NCBI GenBank assembly: GCA_951406725.2
Contig: OX597822.1
Span: forward strand, 95,604,001 to 95,668,000
Length of the DNA stretch: 64,000 bases
Reading direction: 5' to 3'
Source of the DNA: Octopus vulgaris
Lineage: Eukaryota
Under the pieces are notes generated by a model. It was not told where the DNA came from. It saw only the letters and a list, made by a program, of their open reading frames with translations, and searched no databases. Below are positions 2,081-63,121 of the stretch, piece by piece (positions within the stretch are counted from its first letter, which is position 1; every line of letters begins with the position of its first letter). The translations under genes and the position numbers were made by a program.

Positions 2081-2387
2081 CAAGTTGTTTGTCTGTGTGT
2101 GTGTTGTGTGAACCATTTCTTCTCCTACAATTTTCAACTGGATTTCACCAAATTTGTCATGTGAGCTTTCTTTGACTTAGGACGCTTTTTCATATAGTTT
2201 TTTCCTCGAAATTCCGCGCCCCCAACATAAATAGACTACTCTCAACTCGTCTATGATTTGGCATGAGCCAGCGAAAAAGCGTGACGCACACCTAGCTGCG
2301 AAAAATCAATACTTTACTATATCAGCTGTGGCGAGCTCTTAAACGACTGCCTGCACAGTACTGCCAGCGGTATTCATTTGCGAGTTA

Positions 2388-3724
2388 AAGGCGGAGAGCT
2401 GCTAGAAACGTTAGCACGTCGGGCGAAATGCTTAGCGGTATTTCGTCTGCTGTTACGTTGTGAGTTCAAATTCCGCCGAGGTCGACTTTGCCTTTCATCC
2501 TTTCGGGGTCGATAAATTAAGTACCAGTTACGCACTGGGGTCGATGTAATCGACTTAATACCTATGTCTGTCCTTGTTTGTCCCCTCTGTGTTTAGCCCC
2601 TTGTGGGTAATAAAGAAATAGGTATTTCGTCTGCTGTTACGTTGTGAGTTCAAATTCCGCCGAGGTCGACTTTGCCTTTCATCCTTTCGGGGTCGATAAA
2701 TTAAGTACCAGTTACGCACTGGGGTCGATATAATCGACTTAATACCTATGTCTGTCCTTGTTTGTCCCCTCTGTGTTTAGCCCCTTGTGGGTAATAAAGA
2801 AATAGGTATTTCGTCTGCTGTTACGTTGTGAGTTCAAATTCCGCCGAGGTCGACTTTGCCTTTCATCCTTTCGCGGTCGATAAATTAAGTACCAGTTATG
2901 CACTGGGGTCGATGTAATCGACTTAATACCTATGTCCGTCCTTGTTTGTCCCCTCTGTGTTTAGCCCCTTGTGGGTAATAAAGAAATAGGTATTTCGTCT
3001 GCTGTTACGTTGTGAGTTCAAATTCCGCCGAGGTCGACTTTGCCTTTCATCCTTTCGGGGTCGATAAATTAAGTACCAGTTACGCACTGGGGTCGATATA
3101 ATCGACTTAATACCTATGTCTGTCCTTGTTTGTCCCCTCTGTGTTTAGCCCCTTGTGGGTAATAAAGAAATAGGTATTTCGTCTGCTGTTACGTTGTGAG
3201 TTCAAATTCCGCCGAGGTCGACTTTGCCTTTCATCCTTTCGGGGTCGATAAATTAAGTACCAGTTACGCACTGGGGTCGATATAATCGACTTAATACCTA
3301 TGTCTGTCCTTGTTTGTCCCCTCTGTGTTTAGCCCCTTGTGGGTAATAAAGAAATAGGTATTTCGTCTGCTGTTACGTCGTGAGTTCAAATTCCGCCGAG
3401 GTCGACTTTGCCTTTCATCCTTTCGGGGTCGATAAATTAAGTACCAGTTACGCACTGGGGTCGATATAATCGACTTAATACCTATGTCTGTCCTTGTTTG
3501 TCCCCTCTGTGTTTAGCCCCTTGTGGGTAATAAAGAAATAGGTATTTCGTCTGCTGTTACGTTGTGAGTTCAAATTCCGCCGAGGTCGACTTTGCCTTTC
3601 ATCCTTTCGGGGTCGATAAATTAAGTACCAGTTACGCACTGGGGTCGATATAATCGACTTAATACCTATGTCTGTCCTTGTTTGTCCCCTCTGTGTTTAG
3701 CCCCTTGTGGGTAATAAAGAAATA
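2388..3724 (+). mobile_element. SINE family B: ~50-bp head plus 7 tandem 184-bp units
   Basis: Units start at 2437, 2621, 2805, 2989, 3173, 3357, 3541; perfect 19-bp TSD GGTATTCATTTGCGAGTTA at 2369-2387 and 3725-3743; B-box-like GAGTTCAAATTCC. Confidence 0.95.
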
Positions 3725-3956
3725 GGTATTCATTTGCGAGTTATGATTTGCCTGTTTTCACGTGAGCGCTCTTTTTCATATAATTATTCCAGCTCAAACT
3801 AGCCACTTGAAAACTCTTACCCGAAATTAAAAATCCTTAATTCGTTCTGTTTGATTAACATTTTTGCTAACTACATTTTACTATTTTTTTGGTGTTGCAC
3901 ATTTACCGCTTTTTCCATAGAACCGTTTCTAATGTGTAAACTGATAAAATTCCACC

Positions 3957-4850
3957 ATGCCTCGACGCAAAAGATCCAATATATGTCTGCAAACAAATGC
4001 TGCAAAGAAAAGAAAACGTATGCGTGCAAATGAATCTGGCGAGGACGCCGCCAGGAGGAACTCTCTCAATGCATTTAGGATGGCTTCAGCGCGAAGAATG
4101 GAAAGTGAAGACAGCGTTGTGATCGGTTAGCACGTGTCTCTGCGCAACGAATCGCCCAGAGCAACGAGCAACGTTCAGCACGCCAAACAAGAAATTTCTC
4201 CTCTACAGCTGCTGCACGAGCTTCAGAGACTGCAGCACAACGCGCAGATCGACTTACAGGAGATGCTTCCTCAACTGCTGCTGCACGAGCTGCAGAGACT
4301 GCAGCACAATGCGCAGATCGACTTACAAGAAATGCTGCAGCAACTGCTGCTGCGAGCGCTACGGAGACTACAGGGGAAAGGCAACAAAGACTGGAGGCTA
4401 CAACACAGCGAAGGGCTGCACGACGTTCCTACTCAAGGCCATGCTCATCGCGTTGGTCAACGACAGCATTCAACTACGATCCTGCAATTGACTACAGTAA
4501 TCCCCCTGACATTCAAATAGGCTGAAGGTCCACAATCTGCCAATTTTGCGGAGCTAAAAAGTGGCCTGGAGAAACTCCTGGCAGATGCTGCTCCAACGGT
4601 AAGATTACAATACCTCTTTTACAAGATCCTCCACCCCTTTTGACTGATCTTTTGACAAGAGAAACGTGCCTACAACTGTGCGTTCCAAATGACTTCCTTC
4701 GGCGCCAGCATTCTACGAGATGGGCATTTCATGCCTTCCTTTAAAGTGCAAAGGCAGATTTACCATAGAATTGGTTCCCTGCAGCGGCATGACGCTGCCT
4801 CGCCTCAGTTTCTTCAGCTCCACTTCGTGGGAGACTACGCTGAACAGGCA
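3957..4850 (+). pseudogene. Helitron Rep/helicase N-terminal remnant (frameshifted, truncated)
   Basis: MPRRKRSN start, ETAAQRADRL repeats, AFNYDPAIDY, CQFCGAKKWPGETPGRCCSNGK zinc motif, YNCAFQMTSFG...FKVQRQIYHRIGSL...QFLQLHFVG. Confidence 0.9.
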
Positions 4851-5929: not shown

Positions 5930-6126
5930 TTTCCCTTTCTTTTTCCTCACCTCCCTTTTTTTTTTAAATTTTATTTTATCCCCCCCTTTTTTTGTCCTCT
6001 TTCTTTCCATTTACGATCCCTTTTGATCGAAAACCAAACCCCCTTCTTTTACCCCCAAAAGAAAAGCTCTACCTTGTAATTTTGTCCTGTCTGTGTGCAG
6101 CCTTGTGTGGCTAATAAAGAAACATA
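5930..6126 (+). mobile_element. Probable LINE 3' UTR (L1/Tx1-like) with a tail resembling SINE B
   Basis: Pyrimidine-rich tract ending ttgtcctgtctgtgtgcagccttgtgtggctaataaagaaac before (TATC)n. Confidence 0.45.
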
Positions 6127-7602: not shown

Positions 7603-9886
<2,284 letters not shown>

Positions 9887-17989: not shown

Positions 17990-19600
17990 TTTAGAAACTC
18001 CTTTGAATGGTAACTGAATAAAGATGTCATTGCAAAAAGTATATGAAAGCCCTCTATTCTATAAATATTACGTGGGATATTGTTCTTCTTGTATACTTTA
18101 GATCTAAAAAGTCCTATTTAAGTTGATATGGTATTGAATTATGCTTTAATGACCAAATGTATGAAGCCAAACAATTCGTCTGTCTTTGTGTTAGCTTATA
18201 AAGGAATGCACATGTAAATATAATCTCGACTTAAATGGCTTTGAGGTCAATCTGAAGTAAGCTTTTGTTTTGTCTTAAACCCGACATTGGTATACAATAT
18301 CCTTAATCATGCATTTAAAATCTATAGGGCAACTATTGGGAAGAGGGAGTTGCACATGTTGGTGTTTTGTTGGTTAATGGCTTTGTTATGTTTTAAATTT
18401 GTAAGTGTTATGATATTTTAAGTTGTAATCAAAGATTTGAAGTTGTAGAGTTGAAAAGTTTAGCAACATTTCTATTAACTATCAGATGATTTTGTGATTT
18501 AAAGGTAAATGTTTCTCAAAGACCTGAAACAAATTCTGAACCAGTAGTATAGACACTGTATTGTTAGACTGAGATAAAATGGTGAGCTGGAGCATAGTTA
18601 GCATGCCGGGCAAAATTCTTAGAGGCATTTCGTCCGTCTTTTCGTCCTGAGTTTAAATTCCGCCCAGTTAAACTTTGCCGTTCATCCTTTCGTTGTCGAT
18701 AAAATAAGTACTAGTCAAGTACTGAGCTCGTTGTGGTCAACTGCCCCCACCATTTCTCTCAAAAATTCCTGGCATAGTGCCAAAATTTGAAACCAATATT
18801 AGAGGGAGATGAGTATCGGTTTGGGTTTCTTTTCCAATTCTTGTTTATAATGTGATTAAGGATAGGTGTTGTTATGTAATAAATTTTATCTTCAAAACCA
18901 CTTCTGGTCAAGTTTTCACTGTAATAAGATGCATTGAGAAACATTTTTTCCGTTAGCTGATGAGGCGAAAATCCTCAGTGACATGTTCGAGACAAGCTTG
19001 TTAGTAATACACCAGAGGAAGTTGACAAAACAACGGATATAATTATGCATTACGGTTCGATTTATGGTTTGGGAAATAAAAATATTTGGAAGGGTGTCGT
19101 GTAACATTAAGATAATTGACTTTCGTGAAATAAACTACGATGTTTTTTCAGAAATCTAGGATCTCAAAAATAGTTTGAAATATTTTAAAAATTCCACGAT
19201 CGGTGCAGGATTAAGAATTCATTATCCCGAAAAAGGATTATGATGACTATGGGGAAAATGCTTTGCTTTCTCTGGAGTAAGTAGAGTCTGTCAGGTCACT
19301 TGTTTTTGCAGAGTTCTCAGCACCTATGTTCACATCAAAAGGTTCTTTGAATTTCTTATTGATCAATAAATTCAAGCTGTATTTGACAACTACTTTTAGA
19401 TCGTGCCTAATGATTTCTGTTGATGCTTGGGATGTATTAAGCGTAAAAGATTGTTTTAGGTGAAGTTATTGATGCATAATTGTCGCTAGTGTCGAATCAA
19501 AAATATTTATATCTGATTTTATCGGAATGGTTTTAATCTGACTAATCACTTCTGCTGTATAATTCTGCTGTACAATTGACATAACTTTATCAAAGATATA
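17990..19600 (-). mobile_element. Highly decayed PLE (RT plus GIY-YIG), interrupted by a SINE B-like copy at ~18578-18800
   Basis: PFDVNIGAENSAK; SGFEDKIYY; CPIDFKCMIKDIVYQC...TSKPFKSRL...ASYIWSLK. Confidence 0.65.
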
Positions 19601-25322: not shown

Positions 25323-25551
25323 ATATTTCTTTACTGCCCAGAAGGGGCTAAACACAGAGGGGACAGACAATGACAGGCAAAGGGATTAAGTCGATTACAT
25401 CGACCCCAGTGCGTAACTGGTACTTATTTAATCAACCCCGAAAGGATGAAAGGCAAAGTCGACCTCGGCGGAATTTGAACTCAGAACGTAGCGGCAGACA
25501 AAATACGGCTACGCATTTTGCCCGGCGTGCTAACGTTTCTGCCAGCTCACC
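25323..25551 (-). mobile_element. SINE family B monomer
   Basis: Flanked by ~18-bp TSD tacatacctacatatata. Confidence 0.9.
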
Positions 25552-25683
25552 TACATACCTACATATATACCAAACATACACCAGAACCTGAGAACCCACA
25601 CTTTTAAAAATAAAGAACACTAAGGGAAGATTCCAATTTAAGCAATAATCCAATGTAAGCACAACTGGCCAGATATGAACATG

Positions 25684-29510: not shown

Positions 29511-30512
29511 ATGGACAGGAAGTTAGAACAACGAGCAAACGTGAAAATTTGCGTTAAACTTGGGAAGTCTGCTACAGAGACATTGAACGTGCTTCAGCAA
29601 GCTAACAGCGACGAAGCAATGTGTCGTGCGCAATGTTTCAAGTGGCACGGACGCGTCAAAAGTGGAAAAAACGTCTCCGGAAGATGCTGAGCTATCTGGA
29701 AGACCTGCAACACAAGTCACCCCTAGGAATATAGCAAGATCTCATCAGCTTGTACATGAGGATCGTCGGAGGACAATCAAGACGTTTTGAAGCGCTTGTG
29801 GGAGGACATTCTGCGAAGGCGACTGGATCTATGGAATGTGAAGAATTGGATTCCTTACGACGACAATGCACCCTGTCACCGAGCTCTCCTCACTCGTAAA
29901 TTTCTCGCCCAAAACAACATGGTATCGCTTTCTGGAGGGTGCCGAGCTGGCAGAAACGTTAGCACGCCGGGCGGCCGTTTTCGTCTGTCGTTACGTTGTG
30001 AGTTCAAATTCCGCCGAAGTCGAGTTTGCCTTTCATCCTTTCGGGGTCGATAAATTAAGTACCAGTTACGCACTGGGGTCGATGTAATCGACTTAATACC
30101 TATGTCTGTCCTTGTTTGTCCCCTCTGTGTTTAGCCCCTTTTGGGTAATAAAGAAGTAGGTATTTCGTCTGTCGTTACGTTCTGAGTTCAAATTCCGCCG
30201 AGGTCGAGTTTGCCTTTCATCCTTTCGGGGTCGATAAATTAAGTACCAGTTACGCACTGGGGTCGATGTAATCGACTTAATACCTATGTCTGTCCTTGTT
30301 TGTCCTCTCTGTGTTTAGCCCCTTGTGGGTAATAAAGAAATAGGTATCGCTTCTGTACCCGGTCAATTCACGAGATTTAGCACCCGCATATTTCCATCTC
30401 TTCCCCGCGTATTTCCATCTCTTCTCCAGGATGAAAACGTAGCTTAAAAGTCGCCGTCTTAATACCGTTGTCGAAATCGAGACTTAATTGCAGAAGGGTC
30501 TCGACTCGCTTA
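29511..30512 (+). mobile_element. Internally deleted mariner remnant interrupted by SINE B dimer
   Basis: MDRKLEQRANVKICVKLGKSATET, SGRP, HEDRRRTI, DNAPCH, SRDLAPAYFHLFP. Confidence 0.85.
29935..30342 (+). mobile_element. SINE family B dimer (second unit 30159-30342, 184 bp)
   Basis: TSD GGTATCGCTT(T)CTG at 29921 and 30343. Confidence 0.9.
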
Positions 30513-31076: not shown

Positions 31077-31196
31077 TCGGGGTCGATAAATTAAGTACCA
31101 GTTACGCACTGGGGTCGATGTAATCGACTTAATAATTATGTCTGTCCTTGTTTGTCCCCTCTGTGTTTAGCCCCTTGTGGGTAGTAAAGAAATAGG
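31077..31196 (+). mobile_element. SINE family B 3' fragment
   Basis: tcggggtcgataaattaag...aaagaaata followed by GGTAAT. Confidence 0.85.
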
Positions 31197-32254: not shown

Positions 32255-32972
32255 GCACACACATTTATACACACACAAGCACATCTGCACATACACGTAT
32301 GCACACATATATATTGATGTTTGTTTTTGTCAAGTTATATATAAAGCAATTCGCCATTAAACTGAAAGATTATTCAATAAAACGTTTATAAGGAAAAAAT
32401 TGAGAACTACTTCGAAGTAATTATATACATGCATGCATTTATACATACATACATACATACATACATACATACATACATACATACATACATACGTACGTAC
32501 GTACATACATACATACATACATACGTACGTACGTACATACGTAGGCACATACCTACCTACCTACCTACCTACCTACATACATACATACATACATACATAC
32601 ATACATACATACATACATAAATACATACATACATACATACAAACATATGCATGTATGTATATGTCATTAAAATGCACATACATGCATGCATACATTGATG
32701 CATATACACAGACAGATAATATACATGAAAACACCTTCACACATTCACAAACAATTATTCGTGCGTGGGTCTGCAACGTCCACAAATCATTTCGTAACCT
32801 GGGCATTAAGTTTTCTAGCATGAGATGGAAACACAGCATTACCAATTCTATACAGATATATACTCTCATATTTATTGCTGAAATGTTTTCTTGGTGATGT
32901 GCCGAAGTGTTGTTTTACTTCATAGATGATCCGTTTGTACCCGAGCCTATTATTTGTCAACATCTTTAAACC

Positions 32973-33204
32973 TATTTCTTTATTACCCACAAGGGGCTAA
33001 ACACAGAGGGGACAAACAAAGACAGATATAGGTATTAAGTCGATTACATCGACCCCAATGCGTAACTGGTACTTAATTTATCGACCCCGAAAGGATGAAA
33101 GGCAAAGTCGACCTCGGCGGAATTTGAACTCACAACGTAACGCAGACGAAATACCGCTAAGCATTTCGCCCGGCGTGCTAACGTTTCTGCCAGCTCGCCG
33201 CCTT
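32973..33204 (-). mobile_element. SINE family B monomer
   Basis: 15-bp TSD caacatctttaa(a/g)cc. Confidence 0.9.
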
Positions 33205-34582
33205 TTCCAACATCTTTAAGCCGTTTCCTTTGTACCTCTCGCACATGCTTTTCTTAATTCAGCTAGGAGTAAATTGTCGTTGAGGTAACTGATGCTTCAA
33301 CATTGGCAGGACATGGCCATCTGATCGAAGCTGATGTTTTGTAATAATTGTTTCGATGTAGGAGAGACTGGCTTGCTGGAGTACATTGATATTCTTCTGC
33401 CTCTTCCACCACTGGTTGTGCAAGATTTCTACCATGGTGGTATATATACAACCTATGGAAACCCTACCTATAACTTGCCCTATTTTTCCATGTATAGGTG
33501 ACTTGACACAACAGTTGCTATTTGAGCAACAACTAGAGCTTGTAGTTCTCAGTAAGATTACTTACATACATACATACATACACACACATACATACATACA
33601 TACATACATACATACATACATACATACATACATACATACACACATGTGAACAGGCATTAATCTTCTTTCTTCGTTCTTTCGCACCATAAGGGCTCAACTC
33701 ACCTCCACTATTCATCTGTAAACTATTCAAGTTTACACGGATTTCCACACGCCTCCCACATTCAACTGTCCTCGTCACTACACACCTGCATACCGCTCAC
33801 CTCGATACACTCACCACATATACACCACTATACAGACACCCATACACACTAGTCAACTTGTCACTGACTTCACACACCATTACACACACAGTCATACCTT
33901 CCCACTCCACACACACTTGCACCGACCGCTTCTCAGCACCCACACCGCACACCATTATTCACACATCCACACACAATCTCCAATAAAATCACCACACATA
34001 CCACTATACGAGCAGCCACACACACTGTTTAAATCAGTACACACACCATACATCATCATGCACACTGCCACACCCACACAAGCACATAATGCTACTACAC
34101 AAACAATACATACACACACATAACACGCATAAACACATGCAACACACATAGATAACGTTCTCCAAAAAGCACACATTGTACACATGCACACCATTTGGCC
34201 ATCCCTACACACCCGTTAGACTCATTCGCCCCATTCACACATACACTTACAAACTCACACACAACATTCTCATATACGCACACACGCTTGCGCAACTTCG
34301 TTCGTTGGGATCACCATTATTATCTCCCTTTCATTCAACCTCATTTTCCCAGTCATACGCCATGTTAGAACTCTGAACTCTACATTGTTTTCTTCTCAGT
34401 TTTTTTTTCATTCTCTCTTCATTTTTCCATATTGTCCCTTTCTGTCGAAGAGTATAGGCTCGAAACATAAAAAAACTTTTTCATTTTTCATGAGCGTTAA
34501 ACTAATTCATCTGCTTGCTGTTCCTACACCTGTCTTCGTCTTTTGTTTTTTTTTTTTAATTTCAATTTGGACTCTCTCTCTC

Positions 34583-45816: not shown

Positions 45817-46041
45817 ATATTTCTTTACTACCCACAAGGGGCTAAACATGGAGAGGACAAACAACGACAGACAAACGGATTAAGTCGATTACAGTGTGTA
45901 ACTGGTACTTAATTTAGCGACCCCGAAAGGATGAAAGGCAAAGTCAACCTCGGCGGAATTTGAACTCAGAACGTAACGACAGACGAAATAGCGCTAAGCA
46001 TTTCGCCCGGCGCGCTAACGTTTCTGCCAGCTCGCCGCCTT
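45817..46041 (-). mobile_element. SINE family B monomer
   Basis: Reverse copy with a small internal deletion. Confidence 0.85.
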
Positions 46042-49339: not shown

Positions 49340-49892
49340 AAGGTGCCGATCTGGAAGAATCATTAGTATGCCGGGCAAAATGTAAAGCGGCTATTTCGTT
49401 TGTCCTTACGCTCTGAGTTAAAATTCTGCTCAGGTCGACTGTGCCTTCTATCCATTCGGGGTCGATAAAAGAAGTACCAGTTGAGTATAGGGGTTAATGT
49501 AACCCTCTTTCGAAACTGCTGGCCTTGTTACCAAAATCTGAAACCAATATTTTTATTTCATTTAATAAATCGACGATGAAGATCATACTTTCGAAATCTA
49601 CAAGAATTAACTATCTGCTCAAAACCACCCACTACCTTTATTCATTTCCAGTCTGAAGACAGACATTCAACCTATCCTTTTATTACCTTTGTAAATCTTT
49701 TTTATATTGGTATATGCAAAGGCGGAGAACAGGCGGGATCGTTAGCACGCCGGGAGAAATGCTCAGCAGTGTTTCACCCCTCTTTACGTTCTGAGTTCAA
49801 ATTCCGCCGTGGTTGACGTTATTCTCATCCTTTCGGGGACTTATACCCTTCTCCGAAATTGATGGCCTTGTGACAGAATTTGAAGCCAATAT
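49340..49892 (+). mobile_element. Two old SINE B-related copies with a different tail (~49340-49550, ~49718-49892)
   Basis: Head and body like B; tail ggccttgt...tgaa(a/g)ccaatatt also seen at 18578-18800. Confidence 0.7.
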
Positions 49893-55623: not shown

Positions 55624-55924
55624 AAGGCGGCGAGCTGGCAGAAACTTTAGCACGCTGGGCGAAATGCTTCGCGGTATTTCGTCTGCCGTTACGTTGTGAG
55701 TTCAAATTCCGCCGAGGTCAACTTTGCCTTTCATCCTTTCGGGGTCGATAAATTAAGTACCAGTTACGCACTGGGGTCGATATATAATCGACTTAATCCG
55801 TTTGTCTGTCCTTGTTTGTCCCCTCTGTGTTCAGCCCCTTGTGGGTAGTAAAGAAATAGGTATTTCGTCTGCCGCTACGTTCTGAGTTCAAATTCCGCCG
55901 AGGTCAACTTTGCCTTTCATCCTT
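55624..55924 (+). mobile_element. SINE family B monomer plus partial second unit (from 55859)
   Basis: Same aaagaaata|GGTATTTCG junction as the 7-mer. Confidence 0.9.
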
Positions 55925-57861: not shown

Positions 57862-58167
57862 TTTAAATAAAGTATATATATATATATATAAAAGTTACTG
57901 GAAAAACAATAAGTATTTGCAAACAGGTCTCCCTTCATCGAAAACCGGTGATTGCCGTAAGCCGAAGACAGGCAAATACCTAGAAACTGCAGTCCGTGCG
58001 TATCACTTAGGTTTACGAGAGAGGGATGACCTCCCTTTGCAAATACCATAAGGGCACAGGAAGTGTGCCTAAAGCCAGCTGGAGACGATGATCTCCTGGG
58101 GCTAAAAGCTACAGTAACACCCACCCTCAGTGGTTAGCCATATTGAGATGGCTAGTATACTTTACGT

Positions 58168-61801: not shown

Positions 61802-62033
61802 AAGGCGGCGAGCTGGCAGACACGTTAGCGCGCCGGGCGAAATGCTTAGCAGTATTTCGTCTGCCGTTACGTTCTGAGTTCAAATTCCGCCGAGAGCGAC
61901 TTTGCCTTTCATCCTTTCGGGGTCGATAAATTAAGTACCAGTTACGCACTGGGGTAGATATAATCGACTTAATCCGTTTGTCTGTCCTTGTTTGTCCCCT
62001 CTGTGTTTAGACCCTTATGGGCAATAAAGAAAT
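61802..62033 (+). mobile_element. SINE family B monomer
   Basis: Approximate TSD gtatat(t/a)atat. Confidence 0.9.
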
Positions 62034-63121
62034 GTATATAATATATCATATATACACCTCTCCACACACACACACACACACACATACACACTCACACACA
62101 TAAAAAATTGATTGATAGATATAACATTTAAATCAGCTCTGTAGGGATTAAAGTTTCATCGGTGGATAGTTTACGTCCATCTCATCAGATATTCGAGGAA
62201 GAGTGAGAGATTAAAATAAATTGAAGATATCTTCCAAAAAGTCTCTATTGGTTAGCTCAGGTCACGTGCTCAATATGCTATGAAAATGACATAGATTCAT
62301 TTCCTTCATCAACATAATATTCCGATAAATAAATGATTATTTTATTCCCCTACGACAGAACTACGAATTCAAATTCGACAGTATTATTTGTGACTCACGT
62401 GGGAGAATTTCTGGAGGGAGATACGAATTCACTTGTCTTTATAAATGTGGATATGCTGATTAGCTTCTGTATGCCCGATGTCGCCTGTTCGGAATATGGA
62501 GGGTAAGATTTCCTAGCATTTCTAGATGTATCTATCAGAATATTATGTTGATGAAGGAAATGAATCTCTGATTCTAATCCAGAAACGTATGCATCCATAA
62601 TTGACCGGAGACTGTTTGATTTCATTATTTTTCTTGTTTTTTTTTTCCATAGTGAGTTACAAATACTGTTGTCTGTGGGACATATTTTTGAAGTAAAAGA
62701 AATAACAGTCTTCTGGCTGCTATTTCTAATACTTTCGGTATGTGGTCTAGCAACCTGTTGCAAAGACCCTCATTTTTATAATGTATGTATATATATATAT
62801 ATATATATTAATTTATTATATAGAAGGAGCTTCTACAGGACTAGAACTGTTTCATTCAAGAGAAATCATCATATATATACATCATACATATATATAAGTA
62901 TATATATAAAAATATACATACACATAAGGTTACAGATAATTAATTAATTATATTGCAATATACATATACATCCACATCAATGGGTACATATACAATGTTC
63001 ATTATATTTCCAATATTATTATTATTATTATTATTATATTAACATTAGACTATGTGCATTCTGCTATTCACAATACATAGTAAAGGAAAAATACAACATA
63101 ATATATAGTATACTATAATAT

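What the first reader, a model, noticed from the sequence alone, without database searches (positions are those of the whole stretch)
2369..3743. Concatemeric SINE: one head plus seven 184-bp units inside a single perfect 19-bp TSD
Seen: seven near-identical units follow one ~50-bp head. Each joins the 3' end (aaagaaata) to internal position ~50 (GGTATTTCG), and the head is never repeated. Essentially the same junction recurs independently at 30159 (dimer with its own TSD) and 55859 (1.3-mer). Inference: a junction shared by three loci is unlikely to come from local slippage. It fits a multimeric or circular 184-nt RNA reverse transcribed by rolling circle (as described for retrozymes, but here on a tRNA-type SINE with no visible hammerhead), or homology-guided insertion into its own copies. 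The unit is structured (CCT-TTCG-GGG, CCAGT/ACTGG, GTCGAT/ATCGAC hairpins). Internal AATACCTAT is complementary to ATAGGTATT, which exists only across the junction; the 55624 copy lacks this helix, so it is not required.
Basis: partly seen in the sequence, partly recalled or inferred. Interest (0 to 1): 0.8.

Follow-up and report, generated by a model that had tools for sequence, protein, structure and literature searches.

The report
Self-targeting SINE builds tandem arrays
A short mobile element sits here as one head plus seven near-identical bodies, and the six letters that follow its end match a spot inside its own body, so it likely inserts into its own copies and the doubled piece then likely multiplies as ordinary tandem DNA rather than being copied from a circular RNA.

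Summary
Real: one 49-bp head, seven 184-bp units (2437-3724), exact 19-bp TSD. All 4 window loci with the tail-complementary or related arm and an intact 3' end continue with GGT, and 3 left TSDs start GGTATT, GGTAT, GGC, so the junction is tail/target microhomology. Laid contigs show the junction family-wide, other junction classes (to positions 1, 17, 20), and host-to-head joints that fit self-insertion at internal GGT sites, including position 50. Against a circle: no ribozyme motif, circular fold z +0.36, a G-A-G-A-A-A-A polymorphism across units, and a head more diverged than the units. Best reading (0.45): a new copy inserted at position 50 of an older copy with a seamless homology-guided 5' join, then DNA-level expansion. 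The architecture is in print for blood clam and squamates. The scan noted a looser analogue on another genome (e1-7881736), none by sequence. New variant of a known kind; interest 0.45.

The parts
2369..2387 (+). Left TSD, 19 bp; its first six bases (GGTATT) equal element positions 50-55
2388..2436 (+). Head, 49 bp, single copy; A-box-like stretch near 2400-2414 (motif recalled) with two adjacent changes at 2402-2403; 4 differences from the window majority (positions 8, 15, 16, 32)
2407..2459 (+). Predicted long hairpin of head with unit start; 4-nt loop at 2433-2436, so position 50 is the first base after the loop
   Evidence: prediction
2437..2620 (+). Unit 1 (element positions 50-233); B-box-like stretch 2464-2474 (motif recalled); G at position 159
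2557..2565 (+). Internal arm (positions 170-178), 9 of 9 complementary to the 9 bases across the 3' end (2618-2626); pair probabilities 0.51-0.83
   Evidence: prediction
2621..3724 (+). Units 2-7; units 2, 4, 5, 7 identical; unit 3 has 3 private changes and G159; unit 6 has 1 private change; all share T at position 64; no run of 4 T in head or units
3725..3743 (+). Right TSD, identical to the left one
29921..30355 (+). Dimer: TSD 14/13 bp starting GGTAT, damaged head with a deletion, unit 2 from 30159
55624..55924 (+). Full copy plus 66 nt of a second unit (positions 50-115) from 55859; older-type internal arm; no TSD found
32958..33222 (-). Monomer 33204-32973 with 15-bp TSD whose left copy starts GGC and right copy GGT, i.e. 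the third base at the 3' junction likely comes from the element's tail
31077..31194 (+). 5'-truncated monomer followed by GGTA
25324..25556 (-). Older-type monomer followed by TATAT, TSD about 18 bp in TA-rich DNA
45818..46041 (-). Older-type monomer followed by TATAT
61802..62034 (+). Older-type monomer followed by TATAT

Best explanation
This is a tRNA-type SINE array whose outer target duplication and every unit begin with the same hexamer, GGTATT, and it likely arose in two steps: a new copy likely inserted at position 50 of an older copy, and the doubled body then likely grew to seven units by DNA-level duplication. Step 1 (inferred): the RNA's 3' tail pairs with a nicked GGT(ATT) target to prime reverse transcription, and position 50 of any genomic copy is such a target. 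Step 2 (inferred): because the host's head and the first ~16 bases of its body lie just upstream and match the end of the cDNA, the cDNA anneals there and leaves no second head. Result: host TSD, host head, new body, host body, host TSD. Step 3 (inferred): unequal exchange or slippage between 184-bp direct repeats adds units without touching the TSD. Shown: the anatomy, the hexamer identity, GGT after 3' ends, the junction classes in contigs, the variant pattern. Not shown: the partner LINE, transcription, order of events.
For: Targets: left TSD copies start GGTATT, GGTAT and GGC at the 3 GGT-tailed loci that have a TSD; GGTAT occurs at 118 and GGT at 1200 of 128000 strand positions. At 33204 the right TSD copy has T where the left has C. 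Overlap of 3' tail and target is documented for CR1, L2 and RTE elements (PMC6007223, passages). Self-insertion: among X3 contig joints shown, host sequence runs to position 65, 107 or 168 and is followed by a new head; GGT sites lie at 50, 93 and 152, giving 16, 15 and at least 17 bp, like the 14-19-bp TSDs in the window. R2 proteins make mostly seamless 5' joins when cDNA end and upstream target match, and sometimes a join that duplicates the shared stretch (PMC11371274, passages); both forms are seen here. Variants: the one change private to the array and shared by all 7 units (T64) and one shared dimer change (T63) lie in the 50-65 zone that would come from the host; first and second units differ at sites polymorphic in the family beyond it (159; 73; 66 and 73). 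G-A-G-A-A-A-A at 159 needs one difference plus four block duplications. Head 3 events in 49 bp versus 6 in 1288 bp of units, Fisher p 0.003 (0.016 with the TSDs counted); monomer heads are not more changed than their bodies (4/189 versus 31/736). X23 raw reads show shorter tandem units built from the 3' part, one keeping the position-50 junction (41 and 23 reads), so this DNA forms tandem arrays.
Against: 2 of the 4 notable variants shared by first and second units lie outside 50-65 (G99 in the 30159 dimer, A97 at 55859), which fits a common template better than an unrelated donor and host. In the 30159 dimer the first unit, not the last, is the more changed. Head versus ancestral body of the array is not significantly different (3/49 versus 3/184, p 0.11). 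One host-to-head joint (position 119, 6 contigs) has no GGT site 14-19 nt upstream. The joints are contig joints from another species label, show one side only, were 15 and 12 rows shown of 326 and 327, and are no copy counts. The array has no T4, so read-through and whole-array transposition stay open. Head changes could have been inherited from a source copy.
Confidence: 0.45

Rival explanations
1. A multimeric source locus is read through by Pol III from its single head, and the partner LINE primes after any unit, inserting 1- to n-mers whole, each with one head and one TSD. The GGT tail of monomers would be a relic of the junction.
For: No T4 in head or units; first T4 at 3755. TSD perfect. 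Copies with GGT after the 3' end mostly have an internal arm complementary to the 9 bases across the junction (9 of 9 pairs in 3 of 5 such loci; 6-7 of 9 in the other two and in the 3 TATAT-followed monomers). The 55624 copy ends inside unit 2 in a TTT run. Junction is family-wide.
Against: The head has two changes in the A-box-like stretch, a poor source (inference). No other window copy shares T64 or the head's set of changes (0 of 7). The three multimers share no unit-level signature except G73 in unit 1. It still needs a first dimer.
Confidence: 0.18
2. During one insertion the reverse transcriptase reaches position 50 of a linear RNA and jumps, through the shared hexamer, to the 3' end of the same or a sister RNA, several times, finishing through the head (pseudo-rolling circle, no ligation).
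For: Terminal redundancy of 6 nt; position 50 is the first base after the loop of a strong predicted hairpin; R2 proteins jump templates in vitro and give head-to-tail repeats (PMC11371274, passages); units within a locus share variants; 3'-end-to-position-1 joints exist (19 contigs in X3).
Against: One template cannot give G-A-G-A-A-A-A without two parallel changes; head and units should be of one age, but differ; no headless multimer among 3.
Confidence: 0.17
3. Purely DNA-level origin: slippage or repair between the 6-bp repeats at position 50 and at the start of the right TSD duplicates the body in place; no second retrotransposition.
For: The two multimers with a TSD have 5-6-nt matches between TSD start and position 50, the monomer with a GG-starting TSD only 2; explains all shared variants and the intact TSD; SINE-derived tandem repeats are ascribed to unequal recombination (PMC10702118 Discussion; PMC11481361 passages).
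Against: 3 of 8 young loci is too frequent for a 6-bp-seeded 184-bp duplication (inference, no rate measured); unit 1 versus unit 2 differences fall on family polymorphisms in all 3 loci.
Confidence: 0.1
4. A covalent 184-nt circle, made by cutting the hairpin loop at 46-49 and ligating to the 3' end, is reverse transcribed by rolling circle.
For: Fixed junction next to a predicted loop; the junction is the consensus continuation of 193 contig ends in X11, a run only guessed to be RNA.
Against: No Rfam ribozyme hit (1 match, E 2.8); no hammerhead, twister, pistol or hairpin core by pattern, only loose HDV-like partial hits lacking the P1.1 pair; circle z +0.36, 125 of 200 shuffles fold as well; head at 3 of 3 multimers; other junction classes; in the 30159 dimer unit 1 has C at 50 but unit 2 has G.
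Confidence: 0.06
5. The junction is real but the count of seven, or some unit differences, come from assembly or polishing.
For: No reads were laid on the array; A159 is a family variant (about 10% of summed contig depth) that mis-mapped reads could bring in.
Against: Units carry private changes and a shared private T64; flanks join through an exact TSD.
Confidence: 0.04

Closest known systems
TSD1-(SINE)n-TSD1 arrays of blood clam Scapharca broughtonii (PMC11481361; passages read)
   Same: One outer TSD, only the first element with a full tRNA head, following units truncated at the same head position; arrays of 4-15 units reported; a mollusc SINE.
   Different: There the first and inner units also lack part of the tail; here every unit has the full 3' end. 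In the passages read no tail-equals-internal-target rule is given; the authors point to unequal recombination.
SINE-derived satellites (sSat) of squamates (PMC10702118; part 1 of 5, passages and Discussion read)
   Same: Tandem units of 70-290 nt covering part of a SINE, with a longer terminal unit reaching a SINE end; origin put down to unequal recombination or insertion into the same locus.
   Different: The words TSD and microhomology do not occur in its main text; here a TSD is intact and a defined hexamer fixes the junction.
Animal non-LTR retrozymes (PMC7229834 and bioRxiv 10.64898/2026.07.22.740005; passages)
   Same: Tandem units of 150-450 bp, sometimes with TSDs.
   Different: Defined by a type I hammerhead in the units and highly self-paired circular RNAs; neither motif nor stable circle is found here, and a tRNA-type head leads the array.
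R2 'anneal' and 'join' 5' junctions, tail-target annealing (PMC11371274; PMC6007223; passages)
   Same: Works like it: tail pairs with target, cDNA end pairs with matching upstream DNA.
   Different: Shown for R2 at rDNA and as short overlaps for CR1/L2/RTE; here the matching target would be the SINE itself, and the partner LINE is not identified.
Octopus tRNA-SINEs OK, OR1, OR2 and the MetaSINE domain (recalled resemblance; names seen)
   Same: tRNA-type head, conserved middle, simple 3' end.

Membership tests
tRNA-derived SINE | A- and B-box-like internal promoter in a tRNA-like head | tested here: inconclusive
   Box-like motifs at positions 13-27 and 77-87 by eye against recalled consensus; ARAGORN 0 genes and Rfam no tRNA hit.
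tRNA-derived SINE | Short, non-coding, dispersed high-copy repeat | tested here: met
   8 loci at 87% or more in 64 kb; 81875 and 285001 contigs laid in X11 and X3.
tRNA-derived SINE | Variable-length TSDs, 5' truncations | tested here: met
   TSDs of 19, 14/13, 15 and about 18 bp at 4 of 8 loci; one 5'-truncated copy.
tRNA-derived SINE | 3' end shared with a partner LINE | not testable with these tools
   No repeat library or genome; only an 81% tail fragment at 6081-6122 in the window.
Non-LTR retrozyme | Type I hammerhead ribozyme in each unit | tested here: not met
   Rfam scan of 2300-3000; core patterns absent on both strands of three units.
Non-LTR retrozyme | Highly self-paired circular monomer | tested here: not met
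   Circular fold -33.9 kcal/mol, z +0.36, 57% paired; a prediction.
Non-LTR retrozyme | Circular RNA detected in vivo | not testable with these tools
   Only contigs for RNA-like runs.
TSD1-(SINE)n-TSD1 array | One outer TSD, full head only in the first element, same 5' truncation in the rest | tested here: met
TSD1-(SINE)n-TSD1 array | First and inner units usually 3'-truncated | tested here: not met
   All 7 units reach position 233.
SINE-derived satellite (sSat) | Tandem part-SINE units with an extended terminal unit, at least four middle units | tested here: met
   Five middle units, head-bearing first unit (definition).
MetaSINE or octopus OK/OR1/OR2 | Shared central domain sequence | not testable with these tools
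   Motif searches in supplements found nothing; figures not held; one file unreadable.

The most novel reading that the evidence does not exclude
A ribozyme-free, tRNA-type SINE whose RNA is terminally redundant (tail equals positions 50-55, right after a hairpin loop) and is copied round repeatedly by its LINE's reverse transcriptase, as a linear pseudo-circle or as a loop-cut, ligated 184-nt circle, delivering ready-made concatemers in single insertions.
Probability: 0.2. Interest if true: 0.8.

Novelty: new variant of a known kind. Interest (0 to 1): 0.45.

Why it matters
Single-head SINE arrays are reported, but in the passages read their first duplication is left to chance recombination or repeat insertion. 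Here a concrete rule is visible: the bases that follow the element's 3' end are also an internal site, so the family would seed tandem repeats at one fixed joint at many loci. That makes the step from SINE to satellite testable by a census in one long-read genome, and warns that one TSD around a concatemer is no proof of rolling-circle insertion. If the bolder reading holds, it would be a ribozyme-free route to concatemeric retrotransposition.

Tried and rejected
No whole genome is held, so no unit-number census. Pattern scans of viral, metagenome and prokaryote-genome contigs gave 0 hits each. The two raw WGS runs gave only 13 and 180 laid reads of 12.9 million each, far too few for a census; reason unknown, so the X23 tandem reads are of uncertain origin. 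X11 is only guessed to be RNA, and contigs cannot tell a circle from a tandem. Summed contig depths were used only as rough allele shares, not copy numbers. A first pairing test of the terminal stem used a wrong index (zeros) and was redone. Loose HDV-like pattern hits (6, plus strand) come from the palindromic GTCGAC repeated in the next unit and lack the P1.1 pair; rejected. The idea that multimer heads in general are older than bodies was dropped as unproven (p 0.11 for the array). No other window copy of the host DNA covers the insertion site, so no empty site. Pfam and PDB did not confirm the transposase-like flank of the dimer. Earlier scan notes: none by sequence, place or mechanism words. 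Nine paper searches listed no description of this family's arrays or of a tail matching an internal target; the library lacks most subscription papers, including the 1994 octopus SINE paper, and no Dfam or Repbase search was possible.

Full report
Observation. The array is as described: a 49-bp head (2388-2436), seven 184-bp units (2437-3724; period 184, 99% matches, score 2546) and an exact 19-bp direct repeat at 2369-2387 and 3725-3743. A BLAST of the monomer against the window finds 8 loci at 87% identity or more, 3 older relatives and one tail fragment; 3 of the 8 carry the 3'-end-to-position-50 junction. The 30159 dimer has a 14/13-bp TSD with one indel; the 55624 copy has 66 nt of a second unit and no TSD that I could find. 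The host looks like an octopus-type genome from recall only; nothing here tests that.

The TSD starts with GGTATT, the same six bases as element position 50. The dimer's TSD starts GGTAT; the monomer at 33204 has a 15-bp TSD starting GGC on the left and GGT on the right; the truncated copy at 31077 is followed by GGTA. Three older monomers are followed by TATAT. GGT stands at 1200 and GGTAT at 118 of 128000 strand positions, so this is target choice by the element's 3' end, as documented for CR1, L2 and RTE elements (PMC6007223, passages). ATAGGTATT is thus not confined to junctions. The internal arm pairs with it 9 of 9 in the array, the dimer and the 33204 monomer, and 6-7 of 9 in the other five copies, which suggests, by inference, that the tail is part of the RNA of the younger subfamily. 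Two things follow. The junction point cannot be placed within the six bases. And one intact TSD does not show that seven units came in at once, because units can be added between the two copies.

Family-wide data. No genome was held and the three collections had no copy. I laid 4 of 24 listed runs on the monomer at 32800-33400. The raw runs gave 13 and 180 reads, too few to count. In X11 (contigs, RNA only guessed) 193 contigs leave the reference after the 3' end plus GGT, and their consensus (agreement 0.7, median 14 letters) continues into position 53 onward with the family's majority alleles; upstream of the body the consensus of 100 loose ends is the head (0.79). So the junction is widespread but is not the majority context. 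In X3 (another species label) the joints shown link the 3' end to position 1 (19 contigs), 17 (15), 20 (5) and to the position-50 region (10; masked by a 1-nt gap in the reference), and link host sequence ending at 65, 107, 119 or 168 to a new head. Three of these four fit insertion at the internal GGT sites 50, 93 and 152 with 15-17-bp duplications; 119 does not. Only 15 of 326 joints and 12 of 327 between-letter rows were shown, and contigs are not copies. X23 reads show tandem units of about 79 and 70 nt made from the 3' part, the first keeping the position-50 junction (41 and 23 reads; 17 and 11 reads); their origin is uncertain.

Variants. All seven units share T64, seen in none of the other 7 loci, and G73. 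Position 159 reads G-A-G-A-A-A-A; A is about 10% of summed contig depth in both contig runs. One template copied once needs two parallel changes; one difference plus four block duplications also gives the pattern. The units have 4 private changes in 1288 bp, three of them in unit 3; the head has 4 changes (3 events) in 49 bp, two in the A-box-like stretch; Fisher p 0.003, or 0.016 with the unchanged TSDs. Monomer heads are not more changed than their bodies. In all three multimers units 1 and 2 differ at family-polymorphic sites (159; 73; 66 and 73). Of four notable shared variants two lie in 50-65 (T64, T63) and two outside (G99, A97), the latter against my reading.

RNA. The monomer folds at z -3.0, with a long hairpin whose 4-nt loop (46-49) ends just before position 50. 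The unit alone does not beat shuffles, linear or circular. Rfam gives one chance-level match and pattern searches no ribozyme core. There is no T4 in the array, so Pol III could read through.

Mechanism. Most likely (0.45) a new copy primed at position 50 of an older copy, and its cDNA end annealed to the host's matching head and bases 50-65, giving one head, two bodies and the host's TSD; DNA-level duplication then raised the count. R2 proteins make just such seamless joins, and sometimes joins that duplicate the shared stretch (PMC11371274, passages); the X3 host-65-then-head joint would be that second form. For this array it explains T64 (host-derived zone), G versus A at 159 (donor versus host) and the older head. 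Rivals: whole-array transposition from a read-through source (0.18), repeated template jumps on linear RNA (0.17), pure DNA seeding (0.10), covalent circle (0.06), assembly error in the count (0.04). All mechanistic steps are inferred.

Known systems. Blood clam has TSD1-(SINE)n-TSD1 arrays with only the first head complete (PMC11481361, passages); squamates have SINE-derived satellites with an extended terminal unit (PMC10702118, part 1, passages and Discussion). Retrozymes need a hammerhead and a self-paired circle (PMC7229834 and bioRxiv 10.64898/2026.07.22.740005, passages); both tests fail here. PMC4824008, PMC5804259, PMC13282606 and PMC4758252 were read as passages and gave no sequence to compare; one supplement file of PMC4824008 was unreadable and might bear on family naming. 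Nine searches listed no account of a SINE tail that matches its own internal target. An earlier scan note on another genome (e1-7881736) describes a 334-bp tRNA-like concatemer with an inverted head; no inverted head is seen here and I did not test that note.

Verdict. A real, well-formed example of a known architecture with a new, testable rule for its fixed junction. The rolling-circle reading is not excluded but has no positive support. New variant of a known kind; interest 0.45.

Noticed in passing
window 29802-29933 and 30344-30403: The DNA on both sides of the dimer translates in a way that resembles a mariner-type transposase, with the TSD residues repeated on both sides (resemblance recalled; Pfam and PDB gave no hit).
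   Followed up: partly
window 3960-4525: Right flank has a 69-bp coding-like tandem repeat (4187-4373) and a frame with a sub-threshold STPR match (E 0.0002, 22 bits against cut-off 27); likely a Helitron-type remnant (recalled). Left flank 1890-2076 is 77% like 57935-58123.
   Followed up: partly
run X23 on window 32970-33040: Reads show two short tandem repeats derived from the SINE's 3' part: about 79 nt (positions 50-62 fused to 168-233) and about 70 nt (positions 180-233 plus a 16-nt spacer starting GG).
   Followed up: partly
window 2557-2565 and matching sites in all copies: The two changes that mark the younger subfamily (positions 173 and 177) both turn mismatches into pairs with the bases across the 3' end; either selection on a 3' stem or templated correction.
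   Followed up: partly
element position 73 at 29936, 55624 and 33204: In both dimers unit 1 has G and unit 2 has C at position 73, although the two loci belong to different arm types; unexplained.
   Followed up: partly
window 32800-33400: X3, filed under another species label, holds both flank junctions of the 33204 monomer (records 9 and 16), so that insertion is shared.
   Followed up: no
window 18575-18742, 49340-49502, 49719-49838, 6081-6122: Older relatives (76-78%) share head and middle but have other 3' ends; 6081 shares only the tail.
   Followed up: no
window 7806-8443: Broken frames resembling a Penelope-type reverse transcriptase end (recalled; no convincing Pfam hit).
   Followed up: partly
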